Source: Escherichia coli (GTDB lineage: Bacteria; Pseudomonadota; Gammaproteobacteria; Enterobacterales; Enterobacteriaceae). From it: DNA of 64,000 nt. Below are positions 12,001 to 15,000 of this stretch, one piece after another; the first letter of the stretch is position 1; the number at the start of each line of letters is the position of its first letter. The DNA is taken from NCBI RefSeq assembly GCF_030013205.1, contig NZ_CP122648.1; one strand, 5' to 3'. A program made the position numbers.

Positions 12001-15000
12001 ACATATTATTAATAATGTAGGATTATATAAAAAGATATTATTAGAGTTACAATATGTTTATTATATTTACGTGTAAATATGCACATCTACAGATATAGAG
12101 GATATTAGACGGGGAAACCCACATCTATTCTTTAAAGATGCTATACGTAATGATACGCATAGAAAAAACACAAAAATGAATTCCTAATCTTTGTCTTTTA
12201 TTTAAATGACTGGAAACATCCAATTATTGAAAGTTGGTTTCCTAAAAAATTCATTTACGTTCCATTTGAATTTAAAGAACAAGCGACAATTAATCGATAA
12301 AAAAGACAATAAAAATTCCAGGTTGCTTATTTTGGAAATGAACTTACCAGAAGACTTATCTTCACTAAACATAAAAACTGGTGATAACTCCAATTAATAT
12401 AACATATATTTTTCGATAAAAGCACCGATGACTTTTTCATGAAGTTCCACAAAGCGCGAGGAACAGATGGTTTTGCGAGCCAGACGTTTGATTCGGGTTC
12501 TCAGGGTCAGATTGTTGCGCTCAATGCGTTGAGTGAAAATTGTACCAGTCAGATGCTTCTCCTTCGGTAACTCTCTAGTGTAACTACCCCATTCGTCAGT
12601 GATCAACACACCGATGGTAAAAGGGGCAAGCAGCGCCAGCAATTCACGACAGGTTCCATCAGTCCAGGGGCCAAAAGTGTAGGCCAGAACGCCATCAGTT
12701 TTCGTGTTGTACGCGTACCAGAGCCGGTGCTGTCGCCTTTACTGCCGACAAAACTCGATTGCTCATCAGGTTCGCAGATGAGTGCCACATCAGCATGAGC
12801 GACCGGGGATGACGTTATTCTTCGTGGCGAGAGTTTTTTAAAGTCCGGGTGACAGTATTAATGCCGATTTTCAGCATAGGGGCAGTATCGCGAATTCCGA
12901 CACCATTGAAAGCCATTTCAGTGATTTGGTCTTTAACTCCCGGTTTACGGGCCTCGTAACAGTAAGTGAGCTGAAACACCCGGTGACAATCACGGCAGCG
13001 GAATCGCTCATGTCCTTTTGGGGTCTTCTCGTGACGGTAAACCTGAACGGACTGGCAACGGGAGCAATGAAGGTCAACTATAACCATGAAAGAACCTTAA
13101 ATTCGAGTATTTTAGCCCTAAATCAACTAATTGGAAGCATTGCCGTTGAAAGATTATTGTGAGATTGGAATGTATTTTACTAAAAAAGTTGCATGGTCTG
13201 TAATCATATCGACGGCGCTATTGAATTGTATAAAAATGATTGATCATATTTTTTGTCGTGTTATTTAATAATCTTATGTGAAATATCAAGCTAATTTTTA
13301 TTTAAAAACGGTTGTGAAAATGAAAGTATTATATGTTACCAATAGTGCGAGAAGAGAAAGACCATATTTAGATCCAGCGGTTAGGTATAGATGTTATAAT
13401 TTTGCAGAGGTCCTGAGAGCTGACCGAAATCTTGTAAATGTCATTCATTTGGGTGACTTGAAAATGGACTATATATCCTATTTCGATGTTATCGTTTTTC
13501 ATAAACCTCCATTTACAAAAAACTTGCAGGCTGCAATAGCTTTTGGCGAGAAGTTAAAAAAAATAATTATTGCCGATTATGATGATCTCATTTTCGATGA
13601 AAAAAATGCATTGTTTTCGTCTCTATATTTGAATGGCAGAGCAACTGAAAAAGAAGCTATTAGTATATTCAATAGAAATCACAAGGCTCTTAATCTTTTT
13701 AATAAAATTACCGTATCTACATATCCACTTCGTGATGAAGTACTCCACTCGAATCCAGATGCAAACGTAAAGGTTATACACAATGGCCTTTCTCAGATTT
13801 GGGTTGATAGAGCAAGAGAAGACATACTTAGCAACCCAGTACCAGGGCTTATTGGGTATTTCTCCGGCACATCAAGTCATAATCATGATTGGCAAATGGT
13901 CGAGGATCTATTAGCCGAGTTTCTTAATAAAGAAAAAAAAGCAAAACTAAGAGTAGTTGGTCCATTGCACATTAATAAAGATAAATTTGACCAATCTAAA
14001 CTTGAAATTATCAAAGCTGTTGATTATGAAAAATTGCCCAATCTTATTAATTCATGTTGGGTAAATATTGCTCCGTTAGAAAATAACCTTTTTAATTCGT
14101 GCAAGAGTGGTCTTAAGTTCTTTGAAGCTGGAATTTTAAATGTACCATCAATTGTTTCACCAATCCCTGATATGTGTAGATTTTCAGAGTCTGGCCTGTT
14201 GATGCCAAAAAATCCAGATGAATGGACTGATTCTTTGCATTTAATGATGAATGAAAGTACGCGGCAGTCATTATCAAAAAAAGCGTACCAGTTCTCAATT
14301 GATAACTGCATGGCTAGAAATCAATTAAATACTCTCAAACAATTTTATTCTTAAGAGAAAATTAAAATGAAAATCCTTTTTTATCTAGAAATTCACCCAA
14401 TTAGAAATAGCTATTCATCTTTCACCTGGGTCGGAAAGCAGATTATAAATATGTTGAGAAAGCAGTATCTTTCTCAACACCATGCGAAAATTGATTATGA
14501 TGATATTCGAATCGTTGTTTCCAGACATTATCAAGAACTTATTGATAACAATCAGGATTTAAAAACAATTTTTCTTGGACTAACAAAAGAAGAAAATGAC
14601 AGACTTTCTTTTTATATGAGAGACTGGAATTCTGATGTTCAGGCGATAAACAATTGGACATCTTTGATGCAGGGAACTGGTGAGGTTTCTGAATTTTATA
14701 AAAGCATCCTCGATAGGATTTATCAAAATACATTTAGTTTTGATGTCGTTGTTAACTGGAGCACTAATGGTGCAATTCGTGATTTCTGTCGGGAACGAGG
14801 TCTAAGTAATGTATCTATGGAATTGGGATGTGTCAGGGAACCAATTATAAATACCGTATGTTTCGATGCGTGTGGTGTTAATGGCAATTCAGTGATAAAG
14901 AATTTAGATTTTAACGCAATTGATGAAGATGAACTTATAGATATTAAAACAATCATGCCTATCAAGACAAAACATGATATGTCCCTTGATTCATTGTTCA

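What the first reader, a model, noticed from the sequence alone, without database searches (positions are those of the whole stretch)
12394..12788. Both IS1 copies carry an extra frame break inside insB
The N-terminal InsB-like segment (ICEPDEQSSFVGSK) is in one frame, while the continuation (RLWYAYNTKTDGVLAY...TDEWGSY...VELHEKVIG) is in another, consistent with a 1-nt deletion near 12740 (and 20930 in copy 2). This is separate from the programmed insA-insB frameshift site and would inactivate the transposase unless this isoform recodes differently. Two shared defective copies would point to duplication by recombination rather than by transposition.
Basis: partly seen in the sequence, partly recalled or inferred. 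Interest (0 to 1): 0.5.

Follow-up and report, generated by a model that had tools for sequence, protein, structure and literature searches.

The report
Two dead IS1 copies flanking capsule genes
Both IS1 insertion sequences in this E. coli capsule locus have lost the same single base inside the transposase gene, so they are ordinary dead mobile-element relics that now serve only as repeats for recombination around the capsule genes.

Summary
The window is an E. coli chromosome (100% match to ETEC4079) at a group 2 capsule (kps) locus. Two direct 765-bp IS1-family copies (12380-13144 and 20569-21333, minus strand) bracket the serotype-specific region 2. Intact relatives read AAAGCGCGACAG; both copies read AAAGGCGACAG. 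One base is missing between 12736/12737 and between 20925/20926. This lies 96 nt downstream of the intact A6C programmed frameshift site.

The break cuts the InsAB' transposase after its first catalytic Asp, and the DDE_Tnp_IS1 domain is lost. It is not a sequencing error. The site is not a homopolymer, and all 30 complete E. coli genomes with this isoform, plus two metagenome contigs, carry the lesion. RefSeq already annotates these copies as frameshifted pseudogenes. The element shows further decay: 12 departures from strongly conserved residues.

The "recombination, not transposition" inference is plausible but does not follow from the shared defect alone. It is supported by the absence of target-site duplications and by strains with 0, 1, 2 or about 9 tandem region-2 units. 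Allele shuffling between the copies and documented trans-mobilisation of IS1 remain alternatives. This is ordinary and already known, so interest is low.

The parts
12380..13144 (-). IS1-family element, copy T (kpsT-proximal), 765 bp. IRL is GGCAATGCTTCC... at 13144 reading downward; IRR is GGTGATAACTCC... at 12380 reading upward.
   Evidence: Copy-to-copy alignment. Alignment to intact relatives. BLAST to 30 E. coli genomes at >=99.5%. PGAP annotation 'IS1 family transposase, frameshifted'.
12815..13087 (-). insA ORF of copy T, 90 aa, intact (Zn-ribbon plus HTH).
   Evidence: ORF list. Pfam Zn_ribbon_InsA and HTH_Tnp_IS1.
12831..12842 (-). Programmed -1 frameshift site TTTAAAAAACTC (A6C motif) of copy T, intact.
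   Evidence: Read directly from the sequence. Role of the A6C motif from PMC12903888.
12737..12836 (-). Upstream part of insB' in the -1 frame relative to insA (...ICEPDEQSSFVGSK). It contains the invariant Asp108.
12736..12737 (-). Site of the 1-nt deletion in copy T. A C on the IS sense strand (G on the + strand) is missing between these two bases.
   Evidence: Alignment with intact relatives. The 91-nt repaired probe matches a 90-nt span at 98.9% in all 30 genomes.
12394..12736 (-). Downstream part of insB', now in a third frame (RQHRLWYAY...TDEWGSY...QRIERNN...VELHEKVIG...MLY, then stop). It holds Asp165, Glu190 and 16 of the 18 family-invariant columns.
20569..21333 (-). IS1-family element, copy S (kpsS-proximal), 765 bp. 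It differs from copy T at 4 internal positions and at the terminal base.
20925..20926 (-). Site of the same 1-nt deletion in copy S.
21004..21276 (-). insA ORF of copy S, 90 aa, intact.
13278..20320 (+). kps region 2: four genes (glycosyltransferase, beta-Kdo transferase, 1043-aa AlgX-related protein, glycosyltransferase). The two IS1 copies bracket this unit, which is deleted or amplified in other strains.
   Evidence: ORFs. PGAP annotation of the identical record. Copy-number variants.

Best explanation
These are two copies of a decayed, non-autonomous IS1-family element. The isoform is about 90% identical to the copies NCBI names IS1H and about 81% identical in protein to IS1N. A genuine 1-nt deletion at codon 118 of the InsAB' fusion shifts the frame between the first catalytic Asp and the second Asp and Glu, so no DDE transposase can be made. 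insA and the A6C slippery site remain intact.

The lesion, and all other divergence from intact relatives, is common to both copies and to every strain that carries this K locus. The copies now act only as 765-bp direct repeats on either side of capsule region 2. Homologous recombination between them deletes region 2, duplicates or amplifies it, and shuffles alleles between the copies.

Shown here: the deletion, its fixation across strains, loss of the catalytic domain, and the recombination products.

Inferred: that the second copy arose from an already dead element by recombination rather than by its own transposition.
For: - One gap relative to intact relatives, in both copies.
- The deleted C sits in AGCGCG, which is not a homopolymer.
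- Sixteen copies in 9 loci align gap-free to the window copy.
- A repaired 91-nt probe finds no 100% match in 5,426 complete E. coli genomes. All 30 carriers match at 98.9% over a 90-nt span.
- Two metagenome contigs carry the same lesion in the same kps context.
- PGAP flags every copy examined as 'frameshifted'.
- The native product is 161 aa with no DDE_Tnp_IS1 hit. The repaired product is 231 aa with a full-length DDE_Tnp_IS1 hit (205.7 bits) and NF033558 (224 bits).
- Sixteen of 18 family-invariant columns lie downstream of the break.
- There are 12 departures from residues present in >=90% of 72 full-length IS1 transposases, including W111S, R142W, K183T and S213F. Intact members show 0-6.
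- Base 3 of IRL is C where the two intact relatives have T.
- No target-site duplication: best match 5/9-5/10.
- No empty site: the flanks occur only in the same 30 genomes, always with the IS between them.
- Recombination products are seen in other strains. One IS with no region 2: EC5654 and WP5-S18-ESBL-08, the latter with a chimeric IS. Three IS with two units: EC556. About ten IS with nine units: TUM17543.
Against: - There is no experimental test of transposition.
- The origin of the first pair is not resolved. Gene conversion could have spread a lesion that arose after two independent insertions, and subsequent rearrangements could have erased target-site duplications.
- dN/dS against the Salmonella copy is 0.5-0.6. 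This is relaxed but not clearly neutral, and the counts are small.
- Two extra matches to the probe in strain LR-31 were not located, so a moved copy there is not excluded.
- Draft genomes were not searched for an intact progenitor.
Confidence: 0.88

Rival explanations
1. The frame break is a sequencing or assembly error, and the real element has a continuous insB' frame.
For: Single-base indels are a common assembly artefact.
Against: The same gap is present in both copies and in all 30 independent complete assemblies from different laboratories, hosts and countries. It is also present in two metagenome contigs. The deleted base is in AGCGCG, not in a homopolymer run.
Confidence: 0.01
2. This isoform uses a second programmed recoding event at the break, so a full-length transposase is still made.
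For: IS1 already depends on one programmed -1 frameshift. The downstream insB' segment is still an open frame through to the normal stop.
Against: - The closest intact relatives have the extra base and a single continuous insB' frame.
- The required shift is another -1 at GGC AGU AAA GGC, which has no X XXY YYZ heptamer and no long homopolymer for transcriptional slippage (read from the sequence).
- The conceptual protein has lost residues that are 99-100% conserved in the family.
- The isoform is found only at this one locus, so there is no sign of recent movement.
Confidence: 0.02
3. Two active copies transposed independently to the two borders of region 2. The deletion arose later in one copy and was copied to the other by gene conversion.
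For: Exchange between the copies is evident. Sites 240 and 610 of copy T show all four allele combinations across strains, and the alleles that replace the derived ones are those of copy S.
Against: Neither copy has a target-site duplication. Conversion would also have to homogenise every one of about 49 substitutions and 12 conserved-residue changes, whereas the present copies tolerate up to 4 differences. No strain retains an intact copy at either position.
Confidence: 0.12
4. The second copy was made by true transposition of the already dead element, using InsAB' supplied in trans by another IS1 in the cell.
For: Trans-mobilisation of otherwise immobile IS1 copies and of mini-IS1 cassettes has been shown experimentally, though cis action is much stronger (PMC12903888).
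Against: Transposition should leave an 8-9-bp duplication (PMC12428005), and none is present. The isoform's IRs differ from those of the relatives. The other related copy fetched, the IS1H-type relic, is itself frameshifted in the genome examined. The dead isoform is not seen at any other verified site.
Confidence: 0.1

Closest known systems
IS1 (consensus IS1A/IS1E of E. coli K-12) and its InsA / InsAB' system
   Same: - Similar size: 765 versus 768 bp.
- Terminal inverted repeats.
- insA with a Zn-ribbon and HTH.
- insB' overlapping in the -1 frame.
- A6C slippery motif.
- DDE_Tnp_IS1 catalytic domain once one base is restored (PMC12903888).
   Different: - The insB' frame is broken by a 1-nt deletion.
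- Twelve strongly conserved residues are changed.
- There is no target-site duplication.
- The sequence matches canonical plasmid-borne IS1 copies at only about 80% nucleotide identity.
The IS1H-type chromosomal copy next to yiiX / an Rhs element, present in about 2,400 complete E. coli genomes
   Same: It is the closest named isoform (about 90.5% nucleotide identity). In the genome I examined it is likewise annotated as a frameshifted pseudogene fixed at one chromosomal site.
   Different: It has a different locus, occurs as a single copy rather than a pair around cargo, and carries a different lesion (693-nt versus 694-nt pseudo-CDS). About 9.5% sequence divergence separates the two.
IS1-flanked units such as Tn9 and the r-determinant of plasmid NR1/R100 (recalled from the classical literature, not checked here)
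   Same: Two direct IS1 copies bracket a cargo segment. Homologous recombination between them excises the cargo or amplifies it in tandem. The 0, 1, 2 and about 9 unit series seen across strains matches this behaviour.
   Different: In this locus both IS1 copies are dead, the unit has no flanking target-site duplication, and it has been found only at the kps locus. There is therefore no evidence that it ever moved as a composite transposon.
IS elements in E. coli group 2/3 K loci (Gladstone et al., Nat Microbiol 2026, PMC13171598)
   Same: That survey reports that 28% of unique K-locus sequences carry an IS, that IS1 and IS3 are the commonest families, and that IS elements bracket region-2 cargo and are linked to capsule gene exchange.
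   Different: I did not find this particular locus, or the shared frameshift, described in the text I read.

Membership tests
IS1 family insertion sequence | Length of about 740-800 bp with imperfect terminal inverted repeats beginning GGT | tested here: met
   Length is 765 bp. The left end reads GGCAATGCTTCCAATTAGTTGAT and the right end reads GGTGATAACTCCAATTAATATAA. The ends align with those of intact relatives. Base 3 of the left end is C where the relatives have T.
IS1 family insertion sequence | insA (Zn-ribbon plus HTH) followed by insB' in the -1 frame, joined through an A6C slippery motif | tested here: met
   A 90-aa insA is present. TTTAAAAAACTC lies at 12831-12842 and 21020-21031. 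Pfam Zn_ribbon_InsA and HTH_Tnp_IS1 both match.
IS1 family insertion sequence | A continuous InsAB' reading frame encoding the DDE_Tnp_IS1 catalytic domain (an autonomous element) | tested here: not met
   The native fusion stops after 161 aa and has no DDE_Tnp_IS1 hit. The domain is recovered (205.7 bits; NF033558 at 224 bits against a cutoff of 100) only after adding back one C. The sequence is therefore a family member by descent but a pseudogene copy.
IS1 family insertion sequence | An 8-9-bp direct target-site duplication flanking the element | tested here: not met
   The best match across all left/right pairings and registers is 5 of 9 or 5 of 10. The expected duplication size is taken from PMC12428005.
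IS1-based composite transposon (Tn9-like) | Two IS1 copies bracketing cargo | tested here: met
   Direct copies at 12380-13144 and 20569-21333 bracket region 2.
IS1-based composite transposon (Tn9-like) | At least one copy encodes an active transposase | tested here: not met
   Both copies carry the same frameshift.
IS1-based composite transposon (Tn9-like) | A target-site duplication flanks the whole unit, and the unit occurs in more than one genomic context | tested here: not met
   The outer flanks match at only 2 of 10 positions. The flanks and the unit occur only at the kps locus, in 30 genomes and 2 metagenome contigs.
Named isoform IS1H | Near-identity to the reference. The ISfinder convention, recalled from memory, is roughly >=95% protein and >=90% DNA identity. 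| tested here: inconclusive
   The window copy is 90.2-90.7% identical in nucleotides to copies that PGAP labels 'IS1-like element IS1H family transposase'.

The most novel reading that the evidence does not exclude
The pair of dead IS1 copies may be more than debris. It may be a stabilised recombination cassette that lets capsule region 2 (probably K12) switch copy number through RecA-dependent unequal exchange: 0 units (acapsular), 1, 2 or about 9. On this reading, loss of transposase activity would be favoured because it prevents IS1-mediated adjacent deletions of the capsule genes. The variation seen among complete genomes would then reflect a recurrent, selectable capsule dosage or on/off mechanism rather than isolated accidents.
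Probability: 0.2. Interest if true: 0.4.

Novelty: already known. Interest (0 to 1): 0.15.

Why it matters
For the finding as stated, it matters little. Frameshifted IS copies are commonplace, and RefSeq already annotates these two as pseudogenes.

The practical value is in annotation. The two elements should be treated as immobile repeats, not as an active composite transposon.

The context is mildly useful. The repeats explain why strains with this K locus can lose region 2 or amplify it in tandem. That bears on capsule typing, on assembly of this locus from short reads, and on interpreting acapsular variants of porcine edema-disease and ETEC strains and human ExPEC strains.

Tried and rejected
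- Intact progenitor. I found none among 5,426 complete E. coli genomes using a repaired 91-nt probe. PLSDB plasmids contain nothing above 93.8% identity. A gapped pattern scan of GTDB species representatives gave 0 hits. A metagenome scan gave 2 hits, both the deleted form in the same kps context.
- Empty sites. Synthetic IS-less junction queries for both borders matched only the same 30 genomes, always with the IS present or with region 2 deleted.
- Target-site duplications. I tested all pairings, 8-10 bp, in two registers, and found none.
- Protein search for close intact homologues. The best listed hit was only 82% identical (IS1 and IS1N family). The search did not return the closer Salmonella and E. 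marmotae proteins that the DNA search found.
- dN/dS. Values of 0.5-0.6 rest on counts too small to be decisive.
- Promoter and terminator scan around copy T. The result was no better than shuffled sequence.
- Pfam scan of the open frame between copy S and kpsS. No hit.
- The paper defining the IS1 DDE motif (Ohta et al. 2002) is not held. I therefore inferred the catalytic residues from invariant columns of my own alignment.
It is 1 of 72 sequences and does not affect the counts.

Full report
**What is there.** The window matches the chromosome of porcine E. coli ETEC4079 at 100% across the element. It covers a group 2 capsule (kps) locus next to the gsp type II secretion genes. Two IS1-family elements lie on the minus strand in direct orientation, at 12380-13144 (copy T, next to kpsT) and 20569-21333 (copy S, next to kpsS). 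Each is 765 bp. They differ at four internal positions and at the terminal base. Between them lies the serotype-specific region 2, with four genes at 13278-20320 on the + strand.

**Checking the observation.**
- I aligned both copies with two intact, PGAP-annotated relatives: Salmonella pSA20083530.1 (93.6-93.8% identity) and E. marmotae pEM148 (92.7-92.8%). The alignment contains a single gap. The relatives read AAAGCGCGACAG and both window copies read AAAG-GCGACAG.
- On the + strand the missing base falls between 12736 and 12737 in copy T, and between 20925 and 20926 in copy S.
- The A6C programmed frameshift motif TTTAAAAAACTC is intact in both copies and lies 96 nt upstream.
- The extra frame break is therefore real, separate from the programmed site, and shared by both copies.

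**It is not an artefact.**
- The deleted C lies in AGCGCG, not in a homopolymer.
- Sixteen copies from nine independent complete genomes align to the window copy without any gap.
- A 91-nt probe with the C restored finds no perfect match in 5,426 complete E. coli genomes. In all 30 genomes that carry this isoform, the best match is 98.9% over a 90-nt span, which means the deleted form.
- Two metagenome contigs carry the same deleted form in the same kps context.
- PGAP marks every copy I examined as 'IS1 family transposase, frameshifted', with a 694-nt pseudo-CDS against 695 nt in the intact relatives.

**Consequence for the protein.**
- With the programmed -1 shift, the native sequence would give a 161-aa product. 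It keeps the InsA Zn-ribbon and HTH but has no DDE_Tnp_IS1 match.
- Restoring one C gives a 231-aa InsAB' with a full-length DDE_Tnp_IS1 match (205.7 bits) and the NCBIfam IS1 transposase equivalog (224 bits against a cutoff of 100).
- In an alignment with 72 full-length IS1 transposases, Asp108 lies upstream of the break. Asp165, Glu190 (68 of 72) and 16 of the 18 invariant columns lie downstream.
- I infer these three residues to be the DDE triad. The defining paper was not available.
- A second recoding event is unlikely. The needed -1 shift would occur at GGC AGU AAA GGC, which has no slippery heptamer. The closest intact relatives simply have the extra base.

**The element had decayed further.**
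- The conceptually repaired protein departs from the residue found in at least 90% of family members at 12 positions. These include W111S, R142W, K183T and S213F, the last two at invariant columns. Six intact members tested the same way show 0-6 departures.
- Base 3 of the left inverted repeat is C where the two intact relatives have T.
- dN/dS against the Salmonella copy is 0.5-0.6, compared with 0.3 between the two intact relatives. The counts are small.
- All of this divergence is shared by both copies.

**Relatives.**
- The closest named isoform is IS1H at about 90.5% identity. The example I fetched lies beside yiiX and an Rhs element and is itself annotated as a frameshifted pseudogene. 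Matches at 90-95% identity occur in about 2,400 genomes.
- The best protein hits are IS1 and IS1N family transposases at about 80-82% identity.
- No copy between 95% and 99% identity exists in the complete genomes or in PLSDB plasmids.

**How the two copies came to share the defect.** Three observations favour it.
- Neither copy, nor the pair taken as a unit, has the 8-9-bp target-site duplication expected of IS1 transposition. The best match is 5 of 9 or 5 of 10 (duplication size from PMC12428005).
- No empty site exists. The flanking sequences occur only in the same 30 genomes, always with the IS present.
- Other strains show unmistakable homologous-recombination products of the two copies:
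  - A single IS with region 2 gone, in EC5654 and WP5-S18-ESBL-08. The latter IS is a chimera with a crossover between positions 296 and 610.
  - Three IS with two region-2 units, in EC556 and two sister strains.
  - About ten IS with nine tandem units, in TUM17543.

**Why the shared defect is not diagnostic by itself.**
- Copy S is invariant (C, T, T, G at positions 240, 296, 610 and 616) and matches the intact relatives at these sites.
- Copy T shows five haplotypes across strains, with all four allele combinations at positions 240 and 610. This means exchange between the copies or recurrent mutation.
- IS1 transposase can mobilise immobile copies in trans, although cis action dominates (PMC12903888).
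- I therefore rate the interpretation as partly supported. Its conclusion is probably right, but on grounds other than the shared defect.

**Comparison with what is known.** Everything here fits textbook IS1 biology plus ordinary IS decay.
- A recent survey of E. coli K loci reports that IS1 and IS3 are the commonest IS families in these loci, and that IS elements bracket region-2 cargo (PMC13171598).
- IS1 copies without target-site duplications in kps loci have been read as signs of later IS1-mediated rearrangement (bioRxiv 10.64898/2025.12.15.689991).
- The deletion and amplification behaviour parallels the classical IS1-flanked r-determinant and Tn9. That parallel is recalled from memory and was not checked.
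- The locus is probably K12. Its hosts include O139 strains and it lacks rhamnose-synthesis genes, as described for K12 (bioRxiv 10.1101/2025.08.07.669119). This is an inference only.

**Verdict.** The feature is a known kind of thing that is already annotated as a pseudogene in public records. Interest is low.

The only mildly interesting aspect is contextual. Two dead IS1 copies act as recombination handles, giving capsule region 2 a copy number of 0 to about 9 among sequenced strains.

Noticed in passing
window 12380-21333; loci L004, L008, L010, L005, L013: The unit made of IS1 plus kps region 2 varies in copy number among complete genomes. There are 0 units in EC5654 and WP5-S18-ESBL-08, 1 in the window and most strains, 2 in EC556, EC571 and EC581, and about 9 in tandem in TUM17543. 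In TUM17543 some units carry an IS5 insertion in a glycosyltransferase gene and others do not.
   Followed up: partly
window 21334-22018 (+): Between IS1 copy S and kpsS there is an open frame of about 125 codons without a start codon, followed by fragmented short ORFs. It has no Pfam hit. It looks like the remnant of an older region-2 gene truncated at the IS.
   Followed up: partly
window 13278-20320: Region 2 encodes two glycosyltransferases, a beta-Kdo transferase and a 1043-aa AlgX-related (O-acetyltransferase-like) protein, with no sugar-nucleotide synthesis genes. Together with the O139:H1 hosts, this fits the K12 locus described in a 2025 preprint. The identification is inferred, not tested.
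   Followed up: partly
copy T positions 240, 296, 610, 616 (window 12905, 12849, 12535, 12529): All four differences between the two window copies are derived changes in the kpsT-side copy. The kpsS-side copy is identical in every strain examined. The kpsT-side copy lies in the path of kpsMT-to-region-2 transcription, and whether that explains the asymmetry is unknown.
   Followed up: no
NZ_AP027520.1 (strain LR-31), positions unknown: The 91-nt probe matches four places in this chromosome, but only two are at the kps locus. The other two were not located. They could be another IS1 isoform or a relocated copy.
   Followed up: no
L011 1554-2246: The fetched IS1H-type copy lies beside yiiX and an Rhs element and is itself annotated as a frameshifted pseudogene. 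Matches at 90-95% identity occur in about 2,400 complete E. coli genomes. It is another fixed dead IS1 copy.
   Followed up: partly
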